Positions 11,338 through 54,297 are shown, counted from the stretch's first letter. The stretch: 64,000 nt of DNA from Candidatus Parcubacteria bacterium (GCA_026004535.1 BPJI01000001.1:79915-143914); one strand, 5' to 3'. A program made the numbers and translations. The notes: generated by a model not told the origin, from the sequence alone.

Positions 11338-11876
11338 GCGTAGGTCAGCGTGATAATATTAAATATTTGTGCTCTTAAGGCTTTATTTCTTGGTCTGATA
11401 AGGCACGATTATAGATTCGAACTTCATCGATGAAACCTTCATCCAAGTATCCAGGCGACCAGCATATCCTCCAATATAAAATTCCAATATATTTGAATGG
11501 AGTTTGCCTGCTTCCTGATTTTTAACTCTGCATTAAATAAATTTTCATTCCGCCGTATTTTTATCATATGTCCCACTAGTCAAATACCATTGATAACAGA
11601 TATACTACCAGATACACAATTTCGCTAGCTACATTAGTGGCATCATAGAATTAAATCTAAACGATTATCATCTCCAAGCAAACCGCAGTATGCCAACCTA
11701 TTTTGCAAATAAAATTGATGTCATACTTGAATCTGATTATACCAGACATAGTAAATGAGGAGTATTACGTTGAGCTACATCATTAAAGATGGGTTGATTG
11801 GATACTTACATAATCATCACTCCATCAAAACTTAAAGCTTTACCTACTTTACCATCAACACAAGTTGGTCCATTAA
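11338..11876 (-). pseudogene. Frameshifted remnant of a LamG (concanavalin-like) domain, formerly fused to the upstream pilin gene (copy 1)
   Basis: Minus-strand fragments include ...GFIDEVRIYNRALSDQEIKAL..., the canonical LamG C-terminal motif. No ORF of 60 aa or more remains. Homologous to 52741..52935. Confidence 0.55.
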
Positions 11877-12533
11877 CTAAGTTCCATTATTTCCATTTCC
11901 TGATAAATCTTTAGCTGTACAATCATCAAAACTCCAATAACCTACAAGTCCTTGAGCTTGGTCAATTAATCTTTTGTTTGTTCCTGCTGAAAATAGATGA
12001 GGGTAATTATCATTATCATTTTTTGAAGCTTGATTTCTAGAATCTTCTAATTGAGCATAGACAGCATAACTTCCTCCAGCAACAAACGCATAGTAATATG
12101 GAGGTCTATTGATTGGATCAATGAAAAGTCTAGAAAGATTAATGCTTGAAAATTGATTAAAAGGAATAGGAATCCAGCCAGTACCATCAATATTTGTTGG
12201 AGTTGCTGAGCATCTATATGACCAGCCTGAAGGAAGCTGTGGTAATTGACTTATCCATTGACCACAAGTTGATGAAGTATCAGGAAGAGAGATATAGACA
12301 ACATTTGAGGAAGCATATTGAAGTTCAGAAAAGGTGCCTTGAGTTTCAAAAAGAATAAGGTCAAATATTTTTTCAAGATTTTTAAGGTCTGAAGTTCTTT
12401 GACTATCTCTACCTCTTTTAAAGATATCTGCTGGCTTAATGACAACAATTAAGACAGTAGCTAAGATAGCTATTAGAGCTAAGACAACTAAGAGTTCAAC
12501 TAAAGTGAAGGATTTATTCATTTTTTTATTCAT
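11877..12533 (-). CDS. Type IV pilin-like protein (prepilin N-terminal cleavage/methylation domain) truncated at the start of its LamG domain; possibly still expressed as a pilin
   Basis: MNKKMNKSFTLVELLVVLALIAILATVLIV is a class III signal / prepilin motif (FTLVELLVV). The C-terminus ...LVGYWSFDDCTAKDLSGNGNNGT is the typical start of a LamG domain but is followed by a stop. A near-identical copy lies at 53412..53930. Confidence 0.55.
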   Translation of the reverse strand: MNKKMNKSFTLVELLVVLALIAILATVLIVVIKPADIFKRGRDSQRTSDLKNLEKIFDLILFETQGTFSELQYASSNVVYISLPDTSSTCGQWISQLPQLPSGWSYRCSATPTNIDGTGWIPIPFNQFSSINLSRLFIDPINRPPYYYAFVAGGSYAVYAQLEDSRNQASKNDNDNYPHLFSAGTNKRLIDQAQGLVGYWSFDDCTAKDLSGNGNNGT

Positions 12534-37057: not shown

Positions 37058-37756
37058 TCAGTCTTTAAGATTAGTAAAAACTTCTTCAATGTCATCTAGA
37101 TTTAATAATTCTTCTATTAATTGGTTGGCTTTTGTCTTTAAATTTTCACTAATATTTTCCATAATATTCAAAGGTCTAAACTCAAGATAAGAATCTTTAA
37201 CTACAATTTCATTTTTTTCTAATTTATCTTTTAATTCATTAAGCTGACTTAAGTTTGTTATTAACAAAATATCCCCATCTTTCTCTTGAATATCTTCAAA
37301 TAAATCTGCCAGATCTAAGACTTTTGTTTCGTCTTCTTTTGAAATTACAACAACTCCTTTTTCTTGAAAGTTCCAAATTACAGATCTAGGTTCAGCTAAG
37401 CGACCTCCGTATTTATTTAAAAGATGCCTAATCTCTCCTAGGGTTCTGTTTTTATTGTCAGTAATAGCTTTAATTAAAATTTGCACATCTTCTAAATAAG
37501 CTTCAAAAATTATTTCTTCTAAATTATCCTCTTTTGTTTCTCCTTTTTTAATTGCTCGTTCAATATTTTCTAATGGCACCTGAAATTCTCTAGCTCTTTC
37601 AATGGCTGCTCTCAATTTATAATTAGTTTCTGGGTTATTACCTTCGCGAGCAGCAATTGTAATAGCTCTAATCAATTTCGAAATCAATTGCCCTTTTTTA
37701 GCATCAACAATTGCTTTCTTATGTTTAATCTGTGCCCAATGAGAATGACCAGCCAT
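37058..37756 (-). CDS. yebC: YebC/PmpR-family transcriptional regulator
   Basis: True start MAGHSHWAQIKHKK is the family signature. The 48-aa N-terminal extension in the ORF track reads into rnpB and is spurious. Confidence 0.85.
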   Translation of the reverse strand: MAGHSHWAQIKHKKAIVDAKKGQLISKLIRAITIAAREGNNPETNYKLRAAIERAREFQVPLENIERAIKKGETKEDNLEEIIFEAYLEDVQILIKAITDNKNRTLGEIRHLLNKYGGRLAEPRSVIWNFQEKGVVVISKEDETKVLDLADLFEDIQEKDGDILLITNLSQLNELKDKLEKNEIVVKDSYLEFRPLNIMENISENLKTKANQLIEELLNLDDIEEVFTNLKD

Positions 37757-37799
37757 TTTTGCTAGTTTTACAGCTTCACAGCTTCCAAGCTTCAAAAAG

Positions 37800-38231
37800 A
37801 ATATGGGGAAAGCATAAGCCGGGTTTTGTTTTAGCCAATTATCTGTCTTGCGGAGGAAATCGCTTTCCTCCCCTAGCGGCACTCTCGCAAAAGCGAGCAC
37901 GGCCTTGCACCCAAGAAAAGAGAAAGAAGCATTAGTAAATTGCTTTACTATGCCAAAAGGTAGCCAGAAAAAGGATTTTCTGACACCCTTTTGCTTTTCA
38001 CCTTTCCCTGAATTAGCTTCAGGTAGTATTGTCTCTGTTCTTTCTCTTTAGACTTTTCAGCCTAGCGGATTTTTCCGCTTCCCTTACTGGGTGCCCGGAC
38101 TTTCCTCTCCAACCACAGATAAGCACTGATTTAAATATTTTACTGATCAACACAGATTTAATAATCCGTGTTTATCAGTGAGGTTTTTATATCCGTGTTT
38201 ATCCGTAGTCAGAGCAATTGGCTGCTTTCCC
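37800..38231 (-). ncRNA. rnpB: RNase P RNA (bacterial type A-like), ~430 nt with an extended 5' region
   Basis: Minus strand contains GAGGAAAGUCCGGGCAC (CR-I/P4 5' strand, + coordinates ~38093..38109) and AAACCCGGCUUAU (P4 3' strand, ~37814..37826) about 290 nt apart. P1 pairs 5' GGGAAAGCA (38223..38231) with 3' UGCUUUCCC (37806..37814). GC-rich in an AT-rich genome. A promoter lies just upstream. Confidence 0.8.
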
Positions 38232-38238
38232 TTTGAAT

Positions 38239-38267
38239 ATTATAACATCTTATTCATTAATAATCAA
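38239..38267 (-). promoter_or_regulatory. Candidate sigma-70 promoter for rnpB (TTGATT-17-TATAAT on the minus strand)
   Basis: -35 is the reverse complement of 38262..38267, -10 the reverse complement of 38239..38244. The predicted TSS (~38231) coincides with the P1 5' strand of rnpB. Confidence 0.45.
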
Positions 38268-39041
38268 GGTTTTTTGAATATCTGTTCGCCAGATTACTGA
38301 AGAAAAGTTTTTTAAAACATTTAAAGTCTCTTGATGAGGATGGCCATATAAATTTTGACCAACTTGAATTACTGCTACCAATGGCTTGACTAAAGAATAA
38401 AACCTTTCATCAATTGAATATTTTGAACCATGGTGAGGAACTAAAAAATAATCAGCTTTTAAAAATTTTGCACAACAATTAATTAAATTTTCGATTGCTT
38501 CCCTTTCAATATCACCAGTTAAAAGATAAGAATGTTTGCCAAATATTTTTAAAACCAATGACTCATTATTTTCTTTTTTGTAATCTTTATCGGGATGTAA
38601 AACTAAAAAACTAAAATGATTGTCATAGATCTGACTTCCTTGCCTAAAAACTAAAATCGGGATATTTAACTTTTCCACTAAAGCTAAAAGTTTTTCATAA
38701 TTCTTATCTTGGCTTTGTTTTGTACTTACTCCAATTATTCTTACTTTATATCTCTTTAAAATTTCAAAAGCAGCAAAATAATGATCTTTATCAGGATGAG
38801 ACAAAAATAAAATATCTATTTTTTTACTATAAAAAGGTAAAAATTTATCAATTTCTCTTAGGATTAACGAAGGGTATTTTCCGGTATCATAAAGATAAAT
38901 ATTATTTTTATTTTTTATTAAAACCGCCTTACCTTGGCCAACATCTAAAAAAGAAACAAGTCTTTTTTCGTTTAAAGCCGAAAAAATTATCGCGTAAACA
39001 ACAAAATTAACTAAGATCAAGCCTAAAATCAACCGCCTCAT
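38250..39041 (-). CDS. comEC: ComEC C-terminal part: TM helix plus metallo-beta-lactamase domain
   Basis: VSFLDVGQGKAVLI (ComEC MBL start) and LSHPDKDHYF metal-binding motif. Overlaps the upstream ComEC ORF by 35 nt in another frame. Confidence 0.75.
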   Translation of the reverse strand: MRRLILGLILVNFVVYAIIFSALNEKRLVSFLDVGQGKAVLIKNKNNIYLYDTGKYPSLILREIDKFLPFYSKKIDILFLSHPDKDHYFAAFEILKRYKVRIIGVSTKQSQDKNYEKLLALVEKLNIPILVFRQGSQIYDNHFSFLVLHPDKDYKKENNESLVLKIFGKHSYLLTGDIEREAIENLINCCAKFLKADYFLVPHHGSKYSIDERFYSLVKPLVAVIQVGQNLYGHPHQETLNVLKNFSSVIWRTDIQKTLIINE

Positions 39042-40134
39042 CTTTTATTTGGTAATAAATTTCAATAAAAATTAAAAAATAAATTGCAAAAACTAAAATT
39101 AAAGGAATTTTAAAATAAATGACAAAACTACTAAAAATTTTAGCAACAAAAAGAACATAAATTAAAAATGGAAGCGATAACCAGGCAAGATACTTAATTG
39201 GAAAAAACAAAAATAAACTGACTAAAGTCATGACATAAGGGATAATGGGCAAAACAAAAAGATTACTAATTAAAGAAAAGAAATTAAAATTGCCAAAATA
39301 ATAAAGAATTAAAGGATAAGTAAAAATTTGGGCTGCTAGTGTTTCAGAAAATGTTTTTTGAAAAAATTTAGGTAAAAATTTTAATTTCTTTTCAATTAAT
39401 GGCGCTAAATAAAAAATACCAGTAATTGCTAAAAAAGAAAGCTGAGTACCAATATCTTGAAAAATAAACTTTGGATTAATCAAAGAAAAAAGAATTAAGG
39501 CAAAAAGTAAAATATTTCTTCTAAGCGGTAAGCGACCAAATTTATTTTTAACTAAGATTAATAAAAATCCCATTATTCCCGCTCTTAAGACATTGCCCTC
39601 AAAACCCATAAGTAAAATAAAGAAAACAATCAAGAATGAAGAGAAATAAAAAATCAAATTAGGAGTTAAAATTGGAATATATTTTAAAGCTTCATAAAAG
39701 ATAGAAAACATAATTGTTAAATTTTGACCAGAAACAGCAGTAATATGAATTAGGCCGCTATTTATAAAATTTTCTTTAACTTCTTTATCATCAAATTTTG
39801 AACCTAAAAATATTCCTCGAAAAAGATTTTCATGAGGAAACGGTAAAGATTGTTTAATTTTTTCTTCTAAAAAATTTCGATAATTTTGAATAAATATTGG
39901 AGGTTGAATTTTTGGTAAAATTATTTCTTGTCTTAAAAGATAATAAAAAGAACCCAAAAAAATAAATAATAAAAAGAGAATTGAATATTTTAAATTTTTA
40001 AACTTTAAATAAAAAAGTAAAGCAAAAAGAAAATTGAATAAAAACCAAAATTGAGAAAAATGAACAAAAGCTGTGCCTAGAATAAAAGCCGCACCAAAAA
40101 CAAAAAATAAATTAGCAACCAAAAGCTCGGGCAT
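39007..40134 (-). CDS. comEC: ComEC N-terminal part: polytopic competence (DNA-channel) domain
   Basis: More than eight TM helices and the Competence-domain motif GLIHITAVSGQNLTIM. Ends 35 nt inside the MBL ORF, so comEC is split or frameshifted. Confidence 0.75.
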   Translation of the reverse strand: MPELLVANLFFVFGAAFILGTAFVHFSQFWFLFNFLFALLFYLKFKNLKYSILFLLFIFLGSFYYLLRQEIILPKIQPPIFIQNYRNFLEEKIKQSLPFPHENLFRGIFLGSKFDDKEVKENFINSGLIHITAVSGQNLTIMFSIFYEALKYIPILTPNLIFYFSSFLIVFFILLMGFEGNVLRAGIMGFLLILVKNKFGRLPLRRNILLFALILFSLINPKFIFQDIGTQLSFLAITGIFYLAPLIEKKLKFLPKFFQKTFSETLAAQIFTYPLILYYFGNFNFFSLISNLFVLPIIPYVMTLVSLFLFFPIKYLAWLSLPFLIYVLFVAKIFSSFVIYFKIPLILVFAIYFLIFIEIYYQIKDEAVDFRLDLS

Positions 40135-40136
40135 TA

Positions 40137-40207
40137 TGCCCTCAGGAGGAATCGAACCTCCATCTTCTCCTTAGGACGGAGACGCTCTTCCCTTGAGCTA
40201 TGAGGGC
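40137..40207 (-). tRNA. tRNA-Arg(CCU), 71 nt
   Basis: Minus strand reads GCCCTCA TA GCTC AAGGGAA GAGC G TCTCC GTCCTAA GGAGA AGAT GGAGG TTCGATT CCTCC TGAGGGC A. Anticodon CCT. Confidence 0.85.
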
Positions 40208-40378
40208 ATCTTACTAGAAATATTTTAAAATATATCGTTTTTATGCGGAAACTTTAACATTTTCTTATTACTTAACAACTGCTAAATGATATTTCTTTAA
40301 TTTTTCAAATTTATCTCTTAAAGGAAACCGCTTCAAAAATATATATTTCTTTATATTTTTACATAATATATCTTTACT

Positions 40379-40419
40379 CTGCCAACTGACGGAGACGTAT
40401 TCCTTTGAGCTATGAGTGC
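40379..40419 (-). pseudogene. Partial copy (5' half) of tRNA-Arg abutting the stop of the LTD-protein gene
   Basis: The minus strand GCACTCATAGCTCAAAGGAATACGTCTCCGTCAGTTGGCAG matches the tRNA-Arg acceptor 5' strand, D arm and anticodon stem 5' strand, then diverges. Confidence 0.45.
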
Positions 40420-40424
40420 GAAAA

Positions 40425-42764
40425 TTAGAAAATTACAAATCCTTTAAATCTGGGGTTAGAAATATCTCTATTAATTATACGAGACTCTAAAATAATTTGA
40501 ATTTCTTCTTGTTTAGAAATATATAATGAAGGACTTATGTTTGTTTCTACAACTACATACACCCTATATTGTGTCTCTGGAGTAGAAATTAGAGTAGTTG
40601 TTATTTCTTTATTTATAAATCCCTGAAATAAAGTGGTGGTAGTTGTTGCATTATTTAACGATCTAATTTGTAAGGTTAATCCTGAAGAATCAAAACAAGT
40701 CGCCTTCCCACAATATTGAGCTAAAACTATTATAATCTTTTCAAGATTAATATTGTCGTCTATTTTATAATGCCATGTTGCTTTAACTTCAGGAAAATAG
40801 TCGGGGTTAAGATAGGCATTTTCAAACATTACATCGTCTATTTGCTGAAAACTACTTGTTATATCATTACAATCAATCATTTTTGTCGAGGTGGAGATTG
40901 TTTTTATTGTTTGATTGTCATTTTTTAAGTTAAGTTGAAAATAAATATCTGTGTTAGGAAGAAAATCTAATTGAAGTTGACAAATGTTTAGATTGAATTG
41001 TTGATTTGAAAGAATTGAAAAGGTTGTGGTTGCTATTAATAGATAGTCAGTTGAGGTTGATGAAGTTGAGACTTTAATTTCATAAATTAGATCTTGATCA
41101 TAATAAGCTGGTGAAAACCAAGATAAAAGATAATTTTTGTCTTCTGTTTTAATTTGAAAATCTAAAATATTCTTAATTGTTGATTTAGTGATTAATGAAT
41201 TTTCTGGATTTAAAGGAGCATAAACAAAATCATTTGAAGGATTATTAGTTGAATAAGCATTGCCTAAATTTTGATTAATTATTGTCTCAGATGATGAGGT
41301 TGATGTTTTCTTTCTTTGCAAAGATAAAGATGTTGAAGTTGGGCTGGCGACACAATTAGTAAAATTAGTAATATTTCCCCAACAAACATAGTCTATTTGA
41401 TTATTATCTTTGTCATATAATATTAAACCATTATTTTTAGCTAAATTATGGGATTTGGCATAAATAAAATCTGACTGAGTTGTCATTTCTAAAGAAGTAT
41501 TGTTGTTGACTAATAGAAAATAAGAAAAAGCAGGAATAATACCTTTAAATTTTGATGAAGGAATAATTGTTGTTGATGAACCTGTGCTTTTTATTCTTTC
41601 AATTCTCCAATCTGTTAAATCAATATTAAAGTCATTAGGATTATAAAGTTCAATATATTCACCAGTTGATGTGCCTTCTTTGATATAAATTTCAGAAAAT
41701 AAAATTTTTCCTGTTGAAGGTGTGGCTGTTGAAATGTTTTGAATTAGAATTGGTTCTTGGGGGTTGCATAGATCTTGGGGCAAATCTGTTGAAGAAGTTG
41801 AAAAAGTATAGTTTTCTTCATCTAATTTGTCTTTTAAAAATAAGGCAAAATAATAGATTGTTGAAGTTGTAGGACATTTATTTATTTCAAAAAATAAGGT
41901 TGTAGTTGAATTATTAAATTGTGGTTGAGGAAATGTTGATGAAGTACCAAAGTCTTCTAATTTAAAAGTTGAAAAATTAGTTGAAGTTGAGATTAAAAGA
42001 TCGTAGAAATAATTTGTTGAAGATAGATTTAATAATGGCTCTTGGAAAGTAATATTTAAATATATAGATTCTTCAGTTGATGTAATTTCAACAATAAAAT
42101 TATCTATTTTTACTTGCGAAAGATCAATAAAGTCTTCTCTTAGTTTTCTTGATATTGATTTTGAATTTTCAGGGTTAGGATTTCTTAACCAAAAGTCTTG
42201 TGAGTTATTGTCTGTGTCTTGTAAATTTTTTCTTTGAATTGATTTATTTTCAAAATTTAAAGAAATAAATGGTTCTATTTCAGATTGATAGATTTTTTCT
42301 TTGTTGTCTCCATAACCAACTAAATCTGATATTTCTCCATTTGGTTTTCTTAAAATAATTGTATTATTTTTAGATATTGAATAGCTTTGAGCATAAGTTA
42401 GGTCTGCTTGATAGTTATCTTTAAATTCTTCAGCTGAAATTAAAAAGAATGAATAGGGTTTGATTTTGCCTTGAAATTTTGATTGAGGAATTAAAGTATA
42501 GAGATTAGGAGTTGAGGTTGAATCAGGATTTTTTGAAGAATATTTTTCTAATTTCCAGCAGGTTAAGTCTATTTCTTCGTTGTTTGGATTGTAAAGTTCA
42601 ATATATTCGTCATCAGTACTTGAAGCTGATTCAGATTGAATTTCAGATATTAAGATATTAGGATATTGTTTGTTTTTGTAATTTTCACAAGGATCTTTTA
42701 GTTGAGAAAAAGAATTTGAAGTTCTTATATCTGCTCCACCTCCTATATAAGTTAAATTATTCAT
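40425..42764 (-). CDS. Large Thr/Ser/Asn-rich secreted or surface protein with two lamin-tail domains (LTD); its N-terminal part appears decayed upstream
   Basis: Two LTD signatures: ILISEIQSESASSTDDEYIELYNPNNEEIDLTCWKLEK and ILFSEIYIKEGTSTGEYIELYNPNDFNIDLTDWRIER. No signal peptide at the called Met. Coding-like frameshifted sequence continues upstream (42765..43740). Confidence 0.6.
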   Translation of the reverse strand: MNNLTYIGGGADIRTSNSFSQLKDPCENYKNKQYPNILISEIQSESASSTDDEYIELYNPNNEEIDLTCWKLEKYSSKNPDSTSTPNLYTLIPQSKFQGKIKPYSFFLISAEEFKDNYQADLTYAQSYSISKNNTIILRKPNGEISDLVGYGDNKEKIYQSEIEPFISLNFENKSIQRKNLQDTDNNSQDFWLRNPNPENSKSISRKLREDFIDLSQVKIDNFIVEITSTEESIYLNITFQEPLLNLSSTNYFYDLLISTSTNFSTFKLEDFGTSSTFPQPQFNNSTTTLFFEINKCPTTSTIYYFALFLKDKLDEENYTFSTSSTDLPQDLCNPQEPILIQNISTATPSTGKILFSEIYIKEGTSTGEYIELYNPNDFNIDLTDWRIERIKSTGSSTTIIPSSKFKGIIPAFSYFLLVNNNTSLEMTTQSDFIYAKSHNLAKNNGLILYDKDNNQIDYVCWGNITNFTNCVASPTSTSLSLQRKKTSTSSSETIINQNLGNAYSTNNPSNDFVYAPLNPENSLITKSTIKNILDFQIKTEDKNYLLSWFSPAYYDQDLIYEIKVSTSSTSTDYLLIATTTFSILSNQQFNLNICQLQLDFLPNTDIYFQLNLKNDNQTIKTISTSTKMIDCNDITSSFQQIDDVMFENAYLNPDYFPEVKATWHYKIDDNINLEKIIIVLAQYCGKATCFDSSGLTLQIRSLNNATTTTTLFQGFINKEITTTLISTPETQYRVYVVVETNISPSLYISKQEEIQIILESRIINRDISNPRFKGFVIF

Positions 42765-43740
42765 TGTTGTTGGTACTATTTGTTGTCTTAAAGATGTTGT
42801 TGTTTGAGTTGAGGTTTGAATTTTAATTTGATTTGTTCTATCTGTAGTTGTTGGTAATCTTACGATTTCGTACGTCGTAAATTTGTTTATTTCTCTTTTT
42901 TCTTCTGTGTAAGTGATAATATTTTCTTTCTTTTCTTCTTTATAGGTTATTGTTTGAGTTTGAGTTTGTGGTTGAATATTTAATTGAAGTTTTGAGATTG
43001 AAGTTGAAGTTGGTTGAGAAAAAATTTGACCTAAATATGGGGGTGTTGATTCTTTGTAACCTAAGGCTATAAGTCTTATTTCTAAAGTTTGTTTTTGTTT
43101 TTCAAGATTAGCTAATTTTGTTTGTTTTTGTTTAGCTACTTCTGTTTTAAGACATTCTTTCTTTTGTTTAATTGACCAATTATTTTCTGTACATTGAAGA
43201 AATCTATCTTTAATTACTGAAAGAGCACAAGAATAATTATTAGTTGAACAATCATAAACAAAGATAGTATCTTGAAGTATTTGCTCCCAGTCTTGTTTTT
43301 TAGACTTATAATCATCATAATATTCGCCGGTTTTATCACCATTGTATTTTATTATAGCCAGCGCTCTTCATTCTCATTAATTCCATCTTTAAATAATTTC
43401 AAAGCTGCAGCATATAATGAATCTTCTAGATTCCAAGGATTTTTATTTTTAAGTTCTGGATATAGATATCCAAGTTGTAGGTTGAAATTGAGTGTAACCA
43501 ATACCAAAATCTGGAGAAAAAGGAACTTTGTTGATATCTAAACCTAAATTTTTAGTTATTTTTTCTAAAGCTGAGTATTGCTCTGTACACCAACTTGTTC
43601 GAGCTGTTGTAGAATAGCATTTTGTACCCTCAATAGGCCTGGGTCTACTTCTAAGTACATCACAATACTCTACACATCTCTGAATATTCTTATCTTTATC
43701 GCCCAAATTGTTTCCCATAATTTCTAGTAAATCCACTCTC
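42765..43740 (-). pseudogene. Frameshifted coding remnant, including a lytic transglycosylase (SLT) domain, upstream of and probably once continuous with the LTD protein
   Basis: ORF 43449..43736 encodes ...FGIGYTQFQPTTW (compare the SLT motif GLMQFMPSTW). The next frame continues ...SLYAAALKLFKDG. 42765..43270 is protein-like (Thr/Gln-rich, Cys pairs) but interrupted by stops. Confidence 0.45.
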
Positions 43741-44287
43741 TTTTTCTAAAATGGTTAATAAATAGGAAGGCGTTTTAAGCCCTATTATTTTAGTTACCTC
43801 TATCCACAGCTTCAATAATTTCTTTCCAGGCCAAGAGCAATTACGCCTACAATTATGACAAGAAGGTAAATTAAAAGTAATTAACCGCGCACTCTGCTTC
43901 TTAGTTATTCTAACAATTTAAATGTCTCAATATATTTTTCTAAAGCTTCGTTAGCTATAATTTTGATAATTTTCTTATTTTTAAAGGCTACGTATAAAGT
44001 AGTTTCAAGATACCAATCGCCTCTGTCATCATATTTTTTATAGATAATTGATTTTATAAAAATCATAATTGATTAATTGAAATTTTCGAAGGAACGCTAA
44101 TCGTTTTAAAAGTCGTTATATTATCTCTTTCAATTCCTTCCTCGATGGTAGTAGTGGCTATAGAATCTTTTGGTACTCTTCTAGTTTCTTTCATTATAAA
44201 TTTCGCCATCGTCCGAAGTCCATATATAATAGAAATCACTGTCCAATCTCTTACGGGTGCTCCAAATCTTATTAAGCTCCAAGATCA

Positions 44288-44668
44288 TCAAAATGTAATA
44301 GCATCAGTGTCCTTACTTTGATTCAATATCAATTCCTTGGGTATCTCTATTTGATAACCTTCAGCATGATTAATAACCAATTTTCTGTCTCCTTTATCTA
44401 TTATTTCTACTCCTTCAAGTCGGATGTCAGTTGTGGTGGAAATGTAAGATTCAAAATCTAAAGCTCTTGATACTTTTTCAGCATATTCTTCTTCATTGAA
44501 TTTCTTTGTTTTTTCTATTTCTTGTTCTATTTGTTGAAGCTGTTGTTTAGTTTGCTCTATTTTTTTATTGATTGTTAGTTTTTGATAAAGAAAATAGCCT
44601 CCAACTGATAATAAAAGAAGAAAAACTATAAATAAGGATAAAATATCTTTCTTTGTTAAACTTTGCAT
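44288..44668 (-). CDS. Small TM plus coiled-coil protein, unknown function
   Basis: N-terminal TM (ILSLFIVFLLLLSVGGYFLY), coiled-coil (KQQLQQIEQEIEKTKK), and a small C-terminal domain. Confidence 0.4.
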   Translation of the reverse strand: MQSLTKKDILSLFIVFLLLLSVGGYFLYQKLTINKKIEQTKQQLQQIEQEIEKTKKFNEEEYAEKVSRALDFESYISTTTDIRLEGVEIIDKGDRKLVINHAEGYQIEIPKELILNQSKDTDAITF

Positions 44669-44818: not shown

Positions 44819-45247
44819 ATGGGTATTGAGTCGCTACGTAAATTAATACCTGTTATTTTCTTTTTTATTATTTTCAGTTATGCTCTGTCGCCTTCTGGTG
44901 CTGAAATTGAACCCGTTGTCGAGCAAAACTCTTTTGTTAATCCGTTGCCAATAAAGAAGTTTATGATTATGACTATTACCGGTTATTCTTCAAGTCCTGA
45001 CGAAACTGATGACGACCCTTGGATTACTGCCTATAATACATTTGCAAGAGATGGGGTTGTTGCTTCAAATATTTTACCCTTTGGAACTAAAATAAAGATC
45101 CCTGAACTTTTTGGTGATAAAATTTTTGTTGTTGAAGACAAAATGAACCCAAAATATGGCGAAAATTTAGACATTTGGTTTCCAACGAAATGGCAGGCTC
45201 TAAATTTTGGCATCCATTATAATGTTTTAGTTGAAATTTTAGAATAA
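44819..45247 (+). CDS. Secreted 3D-domain protein (MltA-like/RlpA-like peptidoglycan-binding/lytic fold)
   Basis: Signal peptide, then TITGYSSSPDETDDDPWITAYNTFARDGVVASNILPFGTKIKIP...LDIWF is the 3D domain signature. Confidence 0.65.
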   Translation: MGIESLRKLIPVIFFFIIFSYALSPSGAEIEPVVEQNSFVNPLPIKKFMIMTITGYSSSPDETDDDPWITAYNTFARDGVVASNILPFGTKIKIPELFGDKIFVVEDKMNPKYGENLDIWFPTKWQALNFGIHYNVLVEILE

Positions 45248-49903: not shown

Positions 49904-50219
49904 AACCTAAAAGAAATATCGGTAAAAAGACCCAAAAAATAACGAAAAATAAATAAAGAAGGAAAATAAAAAAATAAATCACTAAACCAAAAAATATTCT
50001 TAAAACTCGATAAGGGAAGGCTATTAAATACCCAATAATTGTATGATCACCATAAAGTGGTTTAGTTAAATTTCTTAAATTTGCTTTGACTTTTAAATTT
50101 TTATCAATAAGATAAACCTGGTCAAAGAAATGCCTGATGGTTCTTTGAGGAAAATGATGAAACCAAAAATCTAAAAACTCTATTAAATCATCTAAAATTA
50201 ATGCCCGGAGAATGTTCAT
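49881..50219 (-). CDS. Small membrane protein co-transcribed upstream of the ClpB-like gene
   Basis: Two TM helices (GLVIYFFIFLLYLFFVIFWVFLPIFLLGYGILL). Overlaps the ClpB-like start. Confidence 0.35.
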   Translation of the reverse strand: MNILRALILDDLIEFLDFWFHHFPQRTIRHFFDQVYLIDKNLKVKANLRNLTKPLYGDHTIIGYLIAFPYRVLRIFFGLVIYFFIFLLYLFFVIFWVFLPIFLLGYGILLAK

Positions 50220-51466
50220 TAAAACAATCTTTTTTCTTTTTCTTCGACACTTTCTAATTTAATTATAACTTTACCATATTCACCATCATAACCTGGTTCT
50301 AAAACAATATCTTCACGATCGATTTTTTCTAAAGCTTGAAAAACTAATGGCTCTTGAATTTTCATACTTTCTTTATCATAGTTACCTGTTAAAATTTCCA
50401 ATTCTGGTCCAAAATTTTTAATTAATTCTAAATATTTTATAAAAACTTTTTTTGCTGTTGGTTGAGTATTATAAATTTGAGCCAAAATTTCTAATAAAGG
50501 TGGCGTCCTTTTAAAATTTGGTCTTTGGGTATCATAAAAATCCACTGGTCTTTTAGCTAATTCTTCAACCCTTGACATTACCCCAATAGTTACTTTTTTA
50601 CCACAAACAGGACAAAGATAATTATTTCTCTTTGCTTCCTCTGGAGAAAACCTGATTTTACAAAATCGATGACCATCATAATGATATTTACCTTCCTCTG
50701 GAAAGAATTCGACTGTCAGTAAAATTTTATTTTTATCATCAGGACTCGCCATTGCTTGATAAATATTTTGATAAGATAAATTTTCAACCTCAAATAAGGT
50801 TGCTTCTCTACCTAAACGATGAGTTTGGGGTGAATGAGAATCAGAAAAAGAAACAATAGAAATATTATCAAGTTCAGGAATGCGCCAGTTCATGTTAGGA
50901 TCGCTCGAGAGTCCGGTTTCAACAGCAGTTACATACCTAACATAATCATCAAAAGCATCGTAAATTGAATCAAAACCAGACATTGAACCATATAAAGAAA
51001 ACCATGGAGTCCAAATATGAGCGGGAATGAAAATTGCTTTTTCGTAAATATCAAAGAGAATTTTCATAAAATCAATTACATCTAAACCTAAAATTGGCCT
51101 GCCATCAGAAGCTAAATTACTATAGAGAGAAAGTTTTTTATTTAATTTTTCAACCAAATCAAAACGGGGTAGAATCGCTAAATAATGAATTCTTTTGACT
51201 TTTCCTTGCCGAGAAAAAATTGAACTTATTTCTCCTCCTAAAAGAAAAAAAGTTTCATCATCATTTTTTAATTTATAAACACCATCGCCTGCTTCTTCAA
51301 GTTTTTGCGAAATCTCTTTAAACCACAGAGGGTGAGTAAAATCACCAGTAATTAAAAGTTTTAAGCCTTTAAGTTTGGCGTAGTAATTGAGATTTTCTAA
51401 ATTTAAATCTTTAGAGCAAGCACGAGAATATTTTGAATGTAAATGTAAATCAGCAAAAATTTTCAT
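50219..51466 (-). CDS. PHP-domain protein with internal Cys4 zinc ribbon (TIGR00375-like, EndoQ-like architecture)
   Basis: True start MKIFADLHLHSKYSR (PHP His motif). Later motifs GDFTHP and CPVCGKKVTIGVMSRVEEL. The ORF-track N-terminal extension translates through tRNA-Pro and is spurious. Confidence 0.55.
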   Translation of the reverse strand: MKIFADLHLHSKYSRACSKDLNLENLNYYAKLKGLKLLITGDFTHPLWFKEISQKLEEAGDGVYKLKNDDETFFLLGGEISSIFSRQGKVKRIHYLAILPRFDLVEKLNKKLSLYSNLASDGRPILGLDVIDFMKILFDIYEKAIFIPAHIWTPWFSLYGSMSGFDSIYDAFDDYVRYVTAVETGLSSDPNMNWRIPELDNISIVSFSDSHSPQTHRLGREATLFEVENLSYQNIYQAMASPDDKNKILLTVEFFPEEGKYHYDGHRFCKIRFSPEEAKRNNYLCPVCGKKVTIGVMSRVEELAKRPVDFYDTQRPNFKRTPPLLEILAQIYNTQPTAKKVFIKYLELIKNFGPELEILTGNYDKESMKIQEPLVFQALEKIDREDIVLEPGYDGEYGKVIIKLESVEEKEKRLF

Positions 51467-51470
51467 TTGG

Positions 51471-51544
51471 TCGGGATGGCGGGACTCGAACCCGCAGCCT
51501 CCAGCACCCCATGCTGGTGCGCTAACCAATTGCGCTACATCCCG
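51471..51544 (-). tRNA. tRNA-Pro(GGG), 74 nt
   Basis: Minus strand reads CGGGATG TA GCGC AATTGGTTA GCGC A CCAGC ATGGGGT GCTGG AGGCT GCGGG TTCGAGT CCCGC CATCCCG A. Anticodon GGG. Confidence 0.85.
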
Positions 51545-51756
51545 CATTGAAGTATCTATGGGGACTCGCCCCGAACCAGAGCCTTTGGCACGGTTTCCTG
51601 TACCAGAGTTATCTTCTAACACGATACAGGACCCCAAACCGTGCTCTGCACTGGTTTGGGGCGGGGCGCCCTGCACTGTGCTATGCTCTAGTGCATGGCG
51701 AACCCACAACCTCTGGCACCCCATGCCAGTGCGCTAACCAATTGCGCTATGCCCCG
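51545..51756 (-). other. tRNA-Pro-like 5' two-thirds (58 nt, intact acceptor 5' strand, D and anticodon arms, anticodon GGG) fused to a ~150-nt GC-rich structured element instead of a T arm and acceptor 3' strand
   Basis: Minus strand from 51756 reads CGGGGCA TA GCGC AATTGGTTA GCGC A CTGGC ATGGGGT GCCAG AGGTT GTGGG TTCG, then CCATGCACTAGAGCATAGCACAGTGCAGGGCGCCCCGCCCCAAACCAGTGCAGAGCACGGTTTGGGGTCC... with several mutually exclusive 9-10-bp stems. No matching T-arm or acceptor 3' strand was found. Confidence 0.5.
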
Positions 51757-51990: not shown

Positions 51991-52740
51991 TTAAAAATTA
52001 TAACACAATTTAGCTTTCAGGTTTCAGGTTTTTAGCTTCTTAGCTTCAGAGCTTCAAATATTATTATCTTCTAAGGAAAATTTTAATGAGATACGATCTC
52101 GTTAAATTTCTCAATTTTTGAATTTCTTAAGAAATTGAGAAATTAAAATTGATGGGTTTTAAAATAGATTTTTGAGTCATCAAACGACAGTCTAAGATGC
52201 CATAGCGTTTTTTATATAGTCAAATCTTCTCATTTCTACTAACTTAGTGCGGTCGCATCAAGATAGTAGAAGTGGAAATATTCGGACGTACGACGTCCCG
52301 ATATTTATTTTAACACTTGGGTAAGATAATTGTGAAGTCGTTAATTTGTGAACTTGTGAATTTATTAATGAATGAATTTAGTTAATTTTGTATTTTAGCA
52401 AACCTAGGTAAGTTAAAATACGAAAATCTTTAATTTTATCTTTATTAAATGAATGAATTTAAGGTTATCTAATCTCCAAAGTCGTGTTTAGCACGCCATG
52501 GCGTTTTATAGAGGATTATCTAAAATTAGGTTTCGGGTTATTAGCTTCTTAGCTTCTTCATTTTTTAAATTCTACAATCCAAGGTGACGTTTAAAATGCT
52601 ATAGCGTTTTATAGGTAACCTTCTAAAATTAGCTTTTAGGTTTATAGTTTCGAATATTTTTAAAATTTTAAAGCTGAGAAGCTAAGAAGCTGAAAGCTAA
52701 GAAGCTGAAAGCTAAGAAGCTTTTGAATTATTTTGTAGCT
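51991..52740. repeat. Complex repeat region: 8-bp microsatellites (TTCTTAGC / TTTCAGC units), a vapC-like remnant, and three ~150-bp degenerate units sharing GCCATAGCGTTTTATAG. This is the 3' flank of duplicated module copy 2.
   Basis: gctttcaggtttcaggtttttagcttcttagcttcagagcttc at ~52020..52062; a remnant reading ...EIVSH* at ~52065..52100; gccatagcgtttt-type boxes at ~52190, 52492 and 52588; and gctaagaagctgaaa x3 at 52684..52735. Confidence 0.7.
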
Positions 52741-53930
52741 TCATATAAGAGCTTTAATTTCTTGGTCTGATAAGGCACGATTATAGATTCGGACTTCGTC
52801 GATAATACCCTTATAGAATATCCAACAGTTAGCAATTCTGGCTGCAATATACAAATCATTATCCGAAACTTCGTTATTGGTTTGTCCTGTTTGAGTATAG
52901 CTTAAGACCATCCTTATATAAAAACTTCGTACCAAGAGATTTTTTCCAATGTAAATGCCACTAGAATACCATTGGAATTTATATCAGGATATACGGAGGA
53001 TACGAAGAAATAAGGGTTGTACATTATTGGCGTTATTAAAGAATCTTCAAAGGCGTGATGATCCATATATGCCAACCTATATCCTAGACCTGTATTATAT
53101 GCTAGAATAGGATTCACTGTCTTACTTCTGTTGGGTATTCTATCCACACAAATGAAATCATTACTTCGCTACATTTATAGATGGGTTATATAGAATACTT
53201 TCACATAATCATCAACCCCATCAAAACTTAAAGCTTTGCCTACTTTACCATCAACACAGTTAGGCCATTATAAGTGTTCCATTATTTCCATATCCTGATA
53301 ATCTTTAGCTGTACAATCATCAAAACTCCAATAACCTACAAGTCCTTGAGCTTGATCAATTGAAGTCTTTTATTTGTTCCTGCTGCATAAAGATGAGGTA
53401 ATTATCATCCATCATTTTTGAGCTGTGAGACTGAGGATTGCTTCTAATTGAGCTAGTAAGTCATAACTTCCTCCAGCAACAAATGCATAGTAATATGGAG
53501 GTCTATTGATTGGATCAATGAAAAGTCTAGAAAGATTAATGCTTGAAAATTGATTAAAAGGAATAGGAATCCAGCCAGTACCATCAATATTTGTTGGAGT
53601 TGCTGAGCATCTATATGACCAGCCTGAAGGAAGCTGTGGTAATTGACTTATCCATTGACCACAAGTTGATGAAGTATCAGGAAGAGAGATATAGACAACA
53701 TTTGATGAAGCATATTGAAGTTCAGAAAAGGTGCCTTGAGTTTCAAAAAGAATAAGGTCAAATATTTTTTCAAGATTTTTAAGGTCTGAAGTTCTTTGAT
53801 TATCTCTACCTCTTTTAAAGATATCTGCTGGCTTAATGACAACAATTAAGACAGTAGCTAAGATAGCTATTAGAGCTAAGACAACTAAAAGTTCAACTAA
53901 AGTGAAGGATTTATTCATTTTTTTATTCAT
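52741..53930 (-). pseudogene. Type IV pilin-LamG fusion gene, copy 2, more heavily decayed
   Basis: 53412..53930 encodes the same prepilin N-terminus as 11877..12533 (identical over ~150 aa, then diverging). 52741..52935 encodes the LamG C-terminus (IIDEVRIYNRALSDQEIKALI). The middle is broken into 77-aa and 64-aa fragments with indels relative to copy 1. Confidence 0.6.
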
Positions 53931-53971
53931 AATTCTAACTTCTCATCTCTAATTTCCACCTCCAATTTTTG

Positions 53972-54297
53972 TGGAGGCGGTGGGACTCGAACCCACATCA
54001 GAAGAAAAAGGTGGAAAGAGGCTCTCCTGGCACAGTCAGTTTTCTAATTCCTCTTAAAGAAGATAAACTGACAAACTTCTCTAAGAGTAGGCTCAATAAT
54101 TTCACTTATAACCCTTGAGCCAAGAATTATAAGCTATCGAGGATACTTTAAGCCTCTAAGAATTCCCTCGAAAAATTCTTAGAAGCTGCCTTTACGAAAG
54201 AGCAAAGGCTGGAACTCTGTTGGCACTTATTGGCTGTAGGTTGCCAACCTGCCAGCTCCTCTTTCTCTTTTTCTTCTTCAACCTCCTTCTCGCCCCC
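53972..54297 (-). ncRNA. ssrA: tmRNA (SsrA), ~326 nt
   Basis: Minus-strand 5' GGGGGCG... pairs with 3' ...CGCCUCCA (one G.U) in a tRNA-like acceptor. T arm GUGGG UUCGAGU CCCAC. An internal reading frame GCC AAC AGA GUU CCA GCC UUU GCU CUU UCG UAA gives the tag ANRVPAFALS*. GC-rich. Confidence 0.8.

What the first reader, a model, noticed from the sequence alone, without database searches (positions are those of the whole stretch)
40425..43740. Giant lamin-tail-domain surface protein next to comEC, whose upstream lytic-transglycosylase part is broken by frameshifts
The 779-aa ORF carries two clear LTD signatures (DEYIELYNPNNEEIDLTCW and GEYIELYNPNDFNIDLTDW) in a Thr/Ser/Asn-rich context. LTDs occur in extracellular nucleases and DNA-binding surface proteins, so this is an interesting neighbour for a DNA-uptake channel. 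The called start has no signal peptide. Coding-like sequence continues upstream in other frames for ~1 kb, including an SLT-type lytic transglycosylase motif (FGIGYTQFQPTTW … SLYAAALKLFKDG). The ancestral gene was therefore probably a ~1100-aa SLT-LTD fusion that is now interrupted. Region 43740..44290 further upstream also looks like decayed coding sequence. Partial tRNA-Arg copies flank the locus.
Basis: partly seen in the sequence, partly recalled or inferred. Interest (0 to 1): 0.55.

Follow-up and report, generated by a model that had tools for sequence, protein, structure and literature searches.

The report
Broken cell-wall-cutting stalk protein gene
The 779-aa "surface protein" is the intact rear two-thirds of a larger, conserved gene (a membrane-anchored cell-wall-cutting enzyme on a long stalk, encoded between pilus and DNA-uptake genes); its front is split by a tight cluster of tiny insertions that look more like long-read assembly errors than real gene decay.

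Summary
ORF 40425-42764 (-) has two lamin-tail domains, no export signal, and 201 further open codons upstream with no start codon. Upstream, in shifting frames, lies an MltB/Slt35-like lytic transglycosylase (LT) domain.

Dozens of intact orthologues (1060-1250 aa) show the full gene: membrane anchor, LT domain, coiled coil, linker, then an LTD-Ig-LTD-Ig-beta-sandwich stalk. Two relatives keep the whole cluster intact: pilB, a ~230-aa partner gene, LT-LTD, tRNA-Arg(CCT), comEC.

43905-44290 belongs to the partner gene, not to the fusion. The "flanking" tRNA copies are one 5'-half remnant beside the real tRNA.

A ~93%-identical intact relative places 12 small insertions, 1 deletion and ATG>AAG, all within 44299-43363. 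None sits in a homopolymer. The window lineage shows no excess substitutions, and the next 976 codons are untouched.

Two similar tracts hit paralogous pilin-LamG genes. The record is a low-coverage PacBio HiFi metagenome bin (KatS3mg096) with a second copy of this locus.

I judge consensus artefact about 0.55 and real recent inactivation about 0.33. Only the reads can decide.

The parts
44288..44668 (-). 126-aa ORF (NCBI KatS3mg096_117). It is the intact N-terminal ~119 codons (membrane helix plus coiled coil) of the ~230-aa partner gene. It is cut short by a +1 insertion at 44299 that brings TGATGA into frame.
   Evidence: Intact 228-247-aa homologues sit directly upstream of the LT-LTD gene in L001, L002, L003, L004, L085, L087 and L096. 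Frameshift-aware alignment. DNA alignment to L088. Identity of the record.
43905..44305 (-). Broken C-terminal half of the partner gene. Indels against L088: +1 at 44299, +2 at 44286, -1 at 44229, +3 at 44186, +1 at 44167, +1 at 44071, +1 at 44043. The original stop TAA is at 43907-43905.
43900..43902 (-). Former start codon of the LT-LTD gene. It reads AAG here and ATG in L088; L001 and L002 also have an ATG start nearby.
43359..43899 (-). Broken 5' part of the LT-LTD gene: the membrane anchor (LLLIYLLVIIVGVIA) and the core of the MltB/Slt35-like lytic transglycosylase domain. The catalytic-type Glu of EKES is at 43740-43738, followed by GIGYTQFQPTTW and NPWNLEDSLYAAALKL. Reading needs the frame path f1>f2>f0>f1>f2>f0>f2. 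Insertions: +1 at 43877, 43832, 43800, 43724 and 43463, and +2 at 43364.
   Evidence: Family profile against Slt35 (1d0k): E=2e-22. 36 of 55 relatives match Pfam SLT_2. The reconstructed window sequence itself reaches only E=0.005.
42765..43358 (-). In-frame upstream continuation of the 779-aa ORF with no start codon (198 codons). It holds the end of the LT domain (AIIKYNG), a Cys-rich segment, a coiled coil and a Thr/Ser/Asn/Gln-rich linker.
   Evidence: It aligns collinearly with P0006, P0007 and P0161.
40425..42764 (-). The 779-aa ORF (NCBI GIW67245.1, KatS3mg096_113): the stalk of five beta-sandwich domains. LTD1 is at 42183-42653, LTD2 at 41214-41702, and the variable C-terminal domain at 40428-40850.
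   Evidence: Pfam LTD E=4.4e-30. AlphaFold model pLDDT 86.5, all-beta. Fold matches are generic Ig/FN3 ectodomain strings. Identity of the record.
40388..40419 (-). Degenerate copy of the 5' half of tRNA-Arg, starting 6 nt after the LTD stop codon. The intact tRNA occupies this position in L087 and L096.
   Evidence: blastn 27/30 identical; sequence; position of the tRNA in relatives
40136..40208 (-). tRNA-Arg(CCT), a conserved member of the cluster, abutting comEC.
   Evidence: Same gene at the same place in L087 and L096.
38250..40134 (-). comEC as two ORFs that overlap by 35 nt: Competence domain 39007-40134 and metallo-beta-lactamase domain 38250-39041.
   Evidence: Pfam. The same two-ORF layout with a 35-nt overlap occurs in L087 and L096 and in an independent Logan contig.
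52731..53930 (-). Type IV pilin-like gene with a LamG domain, paralogue 2. The N-terminal 172 codons are intact, then about 9 frameshifts fall between 53438 and 52749. It lies just downstream of pilB (54322-55959).
11357..12533 (-). Type IV pilin-like gene with a LamG domain, paralogue 1. The N-terminal 218 codons are intact, then about 9 frameshifts fall between 11878 and 11546.

Best explanation
What the gene is (shown). The 779-aa ORF is the C-terminal two-thirds of the local orthologue of a conserved Parcubacteria gene of 1060-1250 aa. The full protein has:
- an N-terminal membrane anchor or signal;
- an MltB/Slt35-type lytic transglycosylase (LT) domain;
- a Cys-rich segment and a coiled coil;
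- a low-complexity linker;
- a rigid stalk of five beta-sandwich domains (LTD-Ig-LTD-Ig-variable tip).

The gene sits in the conserved order pilB, ~230-aa membrane partner, LT-LTD, tRNA-Arg(CCT), comEC.

How it most likely works (inferred). The protein is anchored in the membrane and holds a peptidoglycan-cleaving head and a long stalk outside the cell. It opens the cell wall locally, either for the type IV pilus/ComEC DNA-uptake apparatus or against a neighbouring host cell. The variable tip and the LTDs would do the binding.

State in this record (shown). A 950-bp tract (44305-43359) spans the 3' half of the partner gene and the 5' end of the LT-LTD gene. It carries 12 small insertions, 1 deletion and ATG>AAG. 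As written, the gene has no start, no anchor and no readable catalytic domain.

Cause of the breaks (inferred, my preferred reading). They are not in the organism. They are consensus errors of a low-coverage PacBio HiFi metagenome assembly, arising where intragenomic paralogues or strains diverge. On this reading the real gene is intact.

The confidence of 0.55 refers to this last step. The gene identity itself I hold at about 0.95.
For: Gene identity:
- Intact orthologues P0005-P0008 (1060-1210 aa) and about 40 more have anchor + LT + LTD in one ORF.
- The family profile hits Slt35 at E=2e-22, with the Glu of the ES motif aligned to Slt35's ET motif.
- Whole clusters are intact in L096 and L087.
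- The stalk model has pLDDT 86.5.

The breaks are evolutionarily very recent or not real:
- L088 is ~93% identical in DNA and reads in one frame.
- All 13 indels lie between 44299 and 43363. There are none in 335 bp upstream or 299 bp downstream of that alignment, and the next 976 codons are open.
- 12 of the 13 indels are insertions and none extends a homopolymer. 7 of the 9 single-base insertions are G or C in a ~28% GC genome.
- Window-specific substitutions match L088-specific ones inside the tract: 14 vs 13 and 24 vs 21.
- The reconstructed LT segment is as similar to intact orthologues (59-67%) as they are to each other.
- Its differences keep the codon-position pattern of a gene under selection: 0.29/0.18/0.44.

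Source and context:
- The window is MAG KatS3mg096.
- It is 100% identical to Logan contigs of run DRR290133, a PacBio HiFi metagenome (PMC11646566).
- The Katase hot-spring HiFi study (PMC9671151) assembled its reads with metaFlye 2.8.3 and numbers its bins mgNNN. That this record and DRR290133 come from that study is inferred, not shown.
- Only 6 of 13 ordinary window proteins are complete in Logan, which suggests low coverage.
- Two further frameshift tracts lie in two paralogous pilin-LamG genes, and they begin where the two copies stop being identical.
- The genome has a second copy of this locus.
- 50 other genes in the window are intact.
Against: - I could not see any reads, so the artefact reading is an inference from the mutation spectrum and the provenance.
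- The second locus copy (KatS3mg096_526/_527) shows the same 126-aa truncation of the partner, with two amino-acid differences only a few codons away. Its LTD ORF starts at the same Met. Independent random errors would not repeat like that. It needs either a shared collapsed-repeat consensus or a real mutation older than the duplication.
- The start codon is lost by substitution, not by an indel.
- All three tracts hit genes of one functional module (pilin-LamG twice, partner/LT). That would also fit a real coordinated loss.
- Other assemblies of this family show one or two real-looking splits: L004 in an A8 run, L001 and L003 in the A-rich linker, and L002 a TGA.
- No full-length copy from this genome appeared in the protein search.
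- The proposed role in wall opening is untested.
Confidence: 0.55

Rival explanations
1. The breaks are real. This strain has recently inactivated its partner and LT-LTD genes and both pilin-LamG paralogues, so its pilus-associated wall-cutting and adhesion module is being lost. The damaged locus was then duplicated, or homogenised by gene conversion, which gives the second copy _526/_527 with a different C-terminal tip.
For: - Both copies share the same truncation and the same Met, despite nearby sequence differences.
- The start codon is lost by substitution.
- All three tracts are in one functional module, while the ~50 other genes in the window, mostly housekeeping, are intact.
- Splits of this gene occur in other, short-read assemblies.
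- P0140 and P0146 start in the linker.
Against: - Ordinary decay should bring many substitutions, a deletion bias, homopolymer indels, and hits along the whole gene.
- What is seen is 12 insertions to 1 deletion, none in runs, no substitution excess (14 vs 13, 24 vs 21), and zero breaks in the following 2.9 kb.
- At the tract's rate of 5-6 frameshifts per ~550 bp, about 27 or more breaks would be expected in the downstream 2.9 kb if decay were uniform.
- Two long stalk ORFs (976 and at least 765 codons) are still open in an AT-rich genome, which argues that they are under selection and therefore exported.
Confidence: 0.33
2. The 779-aa ORF is a functional stand-alone protein translated from the Met at 42764, and the upstream LT part is a discarded remnant.
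For: - The ORF is long and intact, and a second copy starts at the same Met.
- Stand-alone LTD-stalk proteins without an LT domain exist, for example the 766-aa protein in L006.
Against: - Complete stand-alone homologues have their own N-terminal membrane helix or another N-terminal domain. The remaining ones without an anchor start inside the protein and look like fragments or splits. This ORF has no anchor, and its first 21 residues are disordered.
- 201 open codons with no start, collinear with the orthologues' LT, coiled coil and linker, precede the Met.
- A stalk of Ig-like domains has no plausible cytoplasmic role.
Confidence: 0.04
3. The frameshifts are real and are read through or used: programmed frameshifting, an alternative genetic code, or silent cassettes for surface variation produced by a localised, insertion-prone process.
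For: - The tracts are confined to duplicated surface or pilus genes with variable tips.
- The amino-acid sequence is conserved in every frame segment.
Against: - TGA ends 19 of 51 ORFs, so the standard code 11 applies.
- The shift sites share no slippery motif.
- Six shifts in 550 bp has no precedent for programmed frameshifting.
- No reverse transcriptase gene is in the window.
- No intact expression copy from this genome turned up.
Confidence: 0.05

Closest known systems
MltB / Slt35 of E. coli (family 3 lytic transglycosylases; Pfam SLT_2 PF13406)
   Same: - The family profile matches Slt35 chains at E=2e-22.
- The match runs across the catalytic Glu motif (ES here, ET in Slt35) and the 'S-x-AGA-x-G-x-x-QF-x-P-x-T' motif, which here reads PDFGIGYTQFQPTTW.
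- 36 of 55 relatives match SLT_2.
   Different: - The domain is very divergent; Pfam scores for the close family fall below the curated cut-off.
- It carries a Cys-rich insertion.
- It is held by an N-terminal membrane helix rather than a lipid anchor.
- It is fused to a ~800-aa LTD/Ig stalk.
- No activity has been tested.
Specialised peptidoglycan hydrolases of trans-envelope machines (VirB1, PrgK, TraG of type IV secretion; PleA of Caulobacter pili and flagella, the last from my own knowledge)
   Same: It is an LT encoded inside the gene cluster of an envelope-spanning apparatus, here pilB...comEC. The general idea of local wall opening is described in PMC12102498.
   Different: - The association is with type IV pilus/ComEC genes, not type IV secretion.
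- The protein is far larger and has a long stalk.
- Distant relatives of the LT domain do carry T4SS_pilin domains (P0010, P0021).
- A requirement for pilus assembly or DNA uptake has not been shown.
Bacterial LTD-containing extracellular or membrane-associated hydrolases (described by Mans, Anantharaman, Aravind and Koonin 2004; from my own knowledge)
   Same: - There are two clear LTDs joined to a hydrolase domain.
- The family swaps its N-terminal domain: LT, a weak zinc-phospholipase-C-like domain (E=0.007), or only a membrane helix.
   Different: - The partner here is a lytic transglycosylase. It is not one of the nuclease, phosphatase or metallo-beta-lactamase partners usually listed.
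- What the LTDs bind is unknown.
Frameshift-truncated genes in long-read metagenome assemblies
   Same: Proteins are shortened by small indels in a PacBio metagenome bin. The literature treats most such cases as errors (PMC13087279).
   Different: The indels are not spread over the contig. They are packed into three short tracts in paralogous surface-protein genes, and one of them is shared by two copies.

Membership tests
Lamin tail domain (Pfam PF00932) proteins | Sequence match above the curated Pfam cut-off | tested here: met
   E=4.4e-30, 104.7 bits against a cut-off of 34.3, two stretches
Lamin tail domain (Pfam PF00932) proteins | Ig-like beta-sandwich fold | tested here: met
   The AlphaFold model has pLDDT 86.5 and is all-beta, with LTD1 at residues 38-194 and LTD2 at 355-517. 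Fold matches are Ig/FN3 strings only.
Family 3 lytic transglycosylases (MltB/Slt35, Pfam SLT_2) | Sequence match above the curated Pfam cut-off | tested here: not met
   Window reconstruction: 16.5 bits against 24.3. P0001 reaches 23.3 and P0005 reaches 23.0. More distant relatives do pass, with a best E of 8e-25.
Family 3 lytic transglycosylases (MltB/Slt35, Pfam SLT_2) | Profile-level homology to a solved family member across the catalytic core | tested here: met
   Profile of 55 relatives against Slt35 1d0k/1ltm: E=2e-22, covering 141 profile positions
Family 3 lytic transglycosylases (MltB/Slt35, Pfam SLT_2) | Catalytic Glu in the E-S/T motif | tested here: met
   The Glu of the family ES motif (EKES in this window) aligns with the Glu of Slt35's VETRWG. 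It is present in the window at 43740-43738. That this Glu is Slt35's catalytic residue is from my own knowledge.
Family 3 lytic transglycosylases (MltB/Slt35, Pfam SLT_2) | Cleaves peptidoglycan to give 1,6-anhydro-MurNAc products | not testable with these tools
   This needs an enzyme assay.
Specialised wall hydrolase of a pilus or DNA-uptake machine | Conserved genetic linkage to the machine's genes | tested here: met
   pilB-partner-LT/LTD-tRNA-Arg-comEC in L087 and L096. pilB is upstream in L001, and pilin-LamG is upstream in L003. The linkage is absent in L085, L002 and L004.
Specialised wall hydrolase of a pilus or DNA-uptake machine | Required for assembly or function of the machine | not testable with these tools
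   This needs genetics in a cultivable relative.
Pseudogene (real gene decay) | Reading frame disrupted relative to intact orthologues | tested here: met
   13 indels plus a lost start
Pseudogene (real gene decay) | Signs of relaxed selection (excess substitutions, loss of codon-position bias) | tested here: not met
   14 vs 13 and 24 vs 21 lineage-specific substitutions. Codon-position differences are 0.29/0.18/0.44.
Pseudogene (real gene decay) | The disruptions are present in the organism's DNA | not testable with these tools
   No access to reads. The Logan look-ups were uninformative.
Phase-variable contingency gene (slippage in simple repeats) | Frameshifts lie in homopolymers or short tandem repeats | tested here: not met
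   None of the 13 window indels extends a run. Only the relative L004 breaks in an A8 run.
tRNA-targeted integrated element | Island bounded by the tRNA gene and a direct repeat of part of it, with an integrase | tested here: not met
   The single 5'-half copy lies 180 nt from the tRNA, on the same side of the LTD gene. The tRNA is a conserved part of the cluster in L087 and L096. No integrase is seen nearby.

The most novel reading that the evidence does not exclude
The three indel tracts are real. On this reading a Parcubacteria cell carries duplicated cassettes of its pilus-associated adhesion and wall-cutting module: pilin-LamG twice, and partner + LT-LTD twice, with alternative tips. Their 5' or variable parts have been scrambled by a localised, insertion-only mutational process, while the long stalk ORFs are kept open. 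That would be a silent-cassette or on/off system for surface variation in an ultrasmall episymbiont, driven by a mutation mechanism not described in bacteria.
Probability: 0.07. Interest if true: 0.7.

Novelty: new variant of a known kind. Interest (0 to 1): 0.3.

Why it matters
For this window, the practical point is caution. The "779-aa LTD surface protein" in the public record (GIW67245.1) is a fragment. The frameshifts that create it should not be read as gene decay until the reads are checked. The same applies to two pilin genes in the window.

For biology, the intact family is worth noting. It is a membrane-anchored MltB-like lytic transglycosylase on a long LTD/Ig stalk. It is always paired with a small membrane protein, and in several Parcubacteria it sits between pilB and comEC.

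That makes it a concrete candidate for the component that gets a pilus or DNA-uptake machine through a cell wall, either the cell's own or a host's. Little is known about how ultrasmall episymbionts do this.

The N-terminal enzyme head is swapped between family members: LT, a possible phospholipase-C-like domain, or none. This suggests the stalk is a general delivery scaffold.

Tried and rejected
- **Alternative genetic code (TGA = Gly).** Two relatives have in-frame TGAs, one of them at a conserved Gly in L002. Rejected for the window, because 19 of 51 ORFs end in TGA and the long housekeeping ORFs are intact under code 11.
- **Programmed frameshifting.** Rejected: six or seven shifts with no shared slippery motif.
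- **Phase variation by homopolymer slippage.** Rejected for the window.
- **Diversity-generating retroelement.** No reverse transcriptase was found in the ~30 larger ORFs scanned, and the differences are not A-specific.
- **tRNA-flanked island.** Rejected.
- **A repeat of the tract inside the window as a cause of mis-assembly.** None was found. The repeat is elsewhere in the genome.
- **Structure prediction of the LT domain.** The four-sequence alignment gave a poor model (pLDDT 53.7), which I did not use.
- **Direct PDB and Pfam searches with single fragments.** They found nothing.
- **Exact look-ups to find the tract in an independent Logan assembly of the same reads.** They failed. Only about half of the ordinary genes are complete there, so the absence says nothing.
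- **The first protein search.** It missed the long orthologues that were found later. I therefore do not use its lack of hits as evidence.
- **Whether each inserted base sits next to its transition partner,** which would suggest two alleles merged into one consensus. 6 of 9 do, which is not significant by my own rough estimate.


Full report
**What is at the coordinates**

The window is AT-rich (~29% GC) and densely packed with genes that read correctly under the standard code. TGA ends 19 of 51 ORFs. On the minus strand, 40425-42764 is a 779-aa ORF with two lamin-tail domains: Pfam PF00932, E=4.4e-30, 104.7 bits against a cut-off of 34.3.

Its frame stays open for 201 more codons upstream without a single ATG, GTG or TTG. 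No other ORF in the window comes close to that. Further upstream, pieces of conserved protein sequence appear in changing frames. These include EKESGF, FGIGYTQFQPTTW and NPWNLEDSLYAAALKL.

Downstream lie tRNA-Arg(CCT) at 40136-40208 and comEC as two ORFs.

**What the gene is**

A search with the stitched upstream sequence found intact short relatives. An exhaustive search with one of them found full-length proteins of 1060-1210 aa (P0005-P0008). Each has a hydrophobic N-terminus, the same conserved domain, and two LTDs.

A search with the 779-aa ORF found about 110 relatives. About 40 of the 75 closest carry this N-terminal domain in one ORF of 1000-1270 aa. Apart from the second copy in the same genome, none starts at the window's Met.

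The N-terminal domain is a divergent MltB/Slt35-type lytic transglycosylase (LT):
- Single sequences score just under Pfam's SLT_2 cut-off.
- A profile of 55 relatives matches the Slt35 structure sequences at E=2e-22. The match runs across the catalytic Glu motif and the QF-P-T motif.
- 36 of the 55 relatives match SLT_2 on their own.

The 779-aa part models confidently (pLDDT 86.5) as five beta-sandwich domains in a row: LTD, Ig-like, LTD, Ig-like and a C-terminal domain. Structural matches are only to generic Ig/FN3 ectodomain strings.

**Surroundings and synteny**

Every related locus has a ~230-aa gene directly upstream, overlapping the LT-LTD start by a few bases. It encodes a membrane helix, a coiled coil and a domain with no family match. 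The window's 126-aa ORF (44288-44668) is the intact first half of that gene, and 43905-44305 is its broken second half.

Two relatives keep the entire neighbourhood intact and in the same order as the window: pilB, partner, LT-LTD (1182 and 1064 aa), tRNA-Arg(CCT), comEC Competence ORF, comEC beta-lactamase ORF (L096 and L087). In L001 pilB is upstream, and in L003 a type IV pilin with a LamG domain is upstream.

The neighbourhood with comEC and the pilus genes is therefore conserved in part of the family. It is not universal, since L085, L002 and L004 differ. In the window, pilB (54322-55959) and a pilin-LamG gene are separated from the locus by about 8 kb of other genes.

**The tRNA claim**

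There is only one partial copy. It is about 30 nt of the tRNA's 5' half at 40388-40419, starting 6 nt after the LTD stop. The intact tRNA occupies that position in L087 and L096. About 180 nt separate the remnant from the real tRNA, which abuts comEC as in L087. This marks a small rearrangement at the gene's 3' end. It does not mark the borders of an island.

**Mapping the breaks**

A 1753-nt metagenome contig (L088) is ~93% identical in DNA to window 44640-43060 and reads in one frame. A 1235-aa Logan protein (P0161) has the same N-terminus.

Against L088 the window has:
- +1 at 44299, 44167, 44071, 44043, 43877, 43832, 43800, 43724 and 43463;
- +2 at 44286 and 43364;
- +3 at 44186;
- -1 at 44229;
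- ATG>AAG at the LT-LTD start, 43902-43900.

Which base of a pair is the extra one is ambiguous at some sites. For example, the shift near 43724 could equally be an extra A at about 43712.

All of these lie between 44299 and 43363. The 335 aligned bases upstream and the 299 downstream have no indel, and the following 976 codons are open.

**Why this does not look like ordinary decay**

- Twelve insertions against one deletion.
- No indel extends a homopolymer.
- Seven of the nine single inserted bases are G or C in a ~28% GC genome (my estimate: about 0.3% by chance at that composition).
- Substitutions private to the window lineage inside the tract equal those private to L088: 14 vs 13 in the LT part and 24 vs 21 in the partner part.
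- With the indels removed, the LT segment is as close to intact orthologues (59-67%) as they are to each other.
- Its differences from L085 keep the pos2 < pos1 < pos3 pattern of a gene under selection.

If the tract's frameshift rate applied to the whole gene, about 27 or more breaks would be expected in the downstream 2.9 kb. There are none. Whatever produced the indels made almost nothing but small insertions, very recently, inside sharp borders.

**Two more tracts**

The window holds two paralogous pilin-LamG genes, starting at 12533 and at 53930 on the minus strand. Their first ~510 nt differ at only 5 positions. From the point where the copies diverge, each shows about nine frameshifts against the intact 417-aa homologue of L003. 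About 50 other genes in the window are intact, including DnaG, DnaK, LeuRS, a second class I aminoacyl-tRNA synthetase, PolA, SecDF and PilB.

**Source of the sequence**

Exact look-ups identify the window as the NCBI bin "Candidatus Parcubacteria bacterium" KatS3mg096, a single 556,583-bp contig. The 779-aa ORF is GIW67245.1 (_113) and the 126-aa ORF is _117.

Two Logan contigs assembled from run DRR290133 are 100% identical to window 50992-44640 and to about 39280-35340. That run consists of PacBio HiFi metagenome reads (PMC11646566).

The Katase hot-spring HiFi study assembled its reads with metaFlye 2.8.3 and numbers its bins mgNNN (PMC9671151). That this record and DRR290133 belong to that study is my inference. 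Only 6 of 13 ordinary window proteins are complete in Logan, which points to low coverage. It also means that the absence of tract ORFs there says nothing.

**A second copy of the locus**

The same genome encodes KatS3mg096_526. It is 765 aa, starts at the same Met, and is identical to the window ORF over residues 1-642 apart from three residues. It then continues with a different C-terminal domain.

Next to it is _527, a 126-aa protein that is 124/126 identical to the window's truncated partner and ends at the same place. No full-length copy from this genome appeared.

**Weighing artefact against real inactivation**

For an artefact:
- the insertion-only, substitution-free spectrum;
- the sharp borders;
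- the recurrence exactly where intragenomic paralogues begin to differ;
- a low-coverage long-read metagenome assembly;
- two long stalk ORFs kept open in an AT-rich genome, which implies that they are still selected and therefore still exported.

A consensus built from reads of two diverged copies or strains would produce such tracts and would put the same residual errors into both copies.

For real inactivation:
- the shared truncation in two copies that differ a few codons away;
- the substitution that removes the start codon;
- all three tracts hitting one functional module;
- one or two breaks in this gene in several other assemblies (L004 in an A8 run, L001 and L003 in the A-rich linker, L002 with a TGA).

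I put the artefact at about 0.55, real recent inactivation at about 0.33, and the rest on a stand-alone product or something exotic. Reads decide this, and I had no access to them.

**How the intact protein most likely works (inference)**

The N-terminal helix anchors it in the membrane. The LT head, stabilised by conserved cysteines, cleaves glycan strands. The coiled coil, linker and five-domain stalk would extend from the anchor, with a variable tip.

The conserved position between pilB and comEC, and the obligatory small membrane partner, suggest it opens the wall for the type IV pilus/DNA-uptake apparatus. Alternatively, given the long stalk and the episymbiotic lifestyle of cultivated relatives (PMC12102498, PMC11623550), it may act on a host's wall.

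The family swaps its head. About 40 of the 75 closest have the LT. About 16 have a ~480-aa domain with a weak zinc-phospholipase-C match (E=0.007). About a dozen have a membrane helix with either a short linker or a ~300-aa region of unknown type. This fits a scaffold that presents different hydrolases.

That the LTDs bind DNA is not supported by anything I could test.

**Verdict**

The extras are wrong or need correcting: the flanking tRNA copies, and a single decayed gene reaching up to 44290.

The instance in this window is either a sequencing-consensus casualty or a very young pseudogene. The gene family and its cluster are a modest new variant of known kinds, namely specialised lytic transglycosylases and LTD-hydrolase fusions.

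Noticed in passing
window 11357-12533 (-) and 52731-53930 (-): Two paralogous type IV pilin-like genes with a LamG domain. They differ at only 5 of their first ~510 nt. Each then breaks into about 9 frameshifts from the point where the copies diverge. The intact homologue is 417 aa (L003 161-1414).
   Followed up: partly
window 38250-40134 (-); L087 9291-11175; L096 9719-11603: comEC is encoded as two ORFs, the Competence domain and the metallo-beta-lactamase domain, that overlap by exactly 35 nt in a different frame. The layout is the same in three lineages at ~70-75% identity and in an independent Logan contig. It is therefore a conserved split (or a programmed shift), not an error.
   Followed up: partly
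outside the window: KatS3mg096_526/_527 (NCBI GIW67658.1, GIW67659.1): A second copy of the partner/LTD locus in the same genome. The stalk is identical over 642 residues apart from 3, it has a different C-terminal tip domain, and the partner shows the same 126-aa truncation.
   Followed up: partly
window 40388-40419: A degenerate 5' half of tRNA-Arg starting 6 nt after the LTD stop, 180 nt from the real tRNA. It is probably the scar of a rearrangement at the 3' end of the gene, perhaps linked to exchange of the C-terminal tip.
   Followed up: partly
relatives P0125-P0127, P0137, P0139, P0160, P0193 (L007 4423-8307) and others: The LTD stalk family swaps its N-terminal domain. Instead of the LT, some members carry a ~480-aa domain starting FAFD..THP.LTEEIV, with a weak match to zinc-dependent phospholipase C (E=0.007). 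Others have a membrane helix with either a short linker or a ~300-aa region of unknown type.
   Followed up: partly
L001 ~10950-11010; L002 1651-1653 and ~3360; L003 ~3350; L004 ~1320: Other assemblies of this gene also carry one or two breaks, each at a different place. There are frameshifts in the A-rich linker, an A8 run in L004, and a TGA at a conserved Gly codon in L002. These could be real slippage or phase variation, or assembly errors.
   Followed up: partly
window 37800-38154 (-) and 53969-54297 (-): RNase P RNA (class A, 102.5 bits) and tmRNA (tag AASKNFSREFLEA). The spurious ORFs listed over 37732-38181 lie on the RNase P gene.
   Followed up: yes
window 2489-3979 (-): A 496-aa protein with type IV secretion coupling-protein domains (TrwB_AAD_bind, T4SS-DNA_transf), next to DNA primase. 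Distant relatives of the LT domain carry T4SS_pilin domains (P0010, P0021).
   Followed up: no
window 50219-51724 (-): The listed 501-aa ORF runs over tRNA-Pro (51468-51544, same strand). Its true start must therefore lie further downstream, after the tRNA. The N-terminal GC-rich 'protein' sequence is the tRNA region read as codons.
   Followed up: no
window 44819-45247 (+): A 142-aa secreted-looking protein facing the locus. By eye its C-terminal half resembles a 3D/RlpA-like wall-binding domain, but it has no Pfam match at E<=0.1.
   Followed up: no
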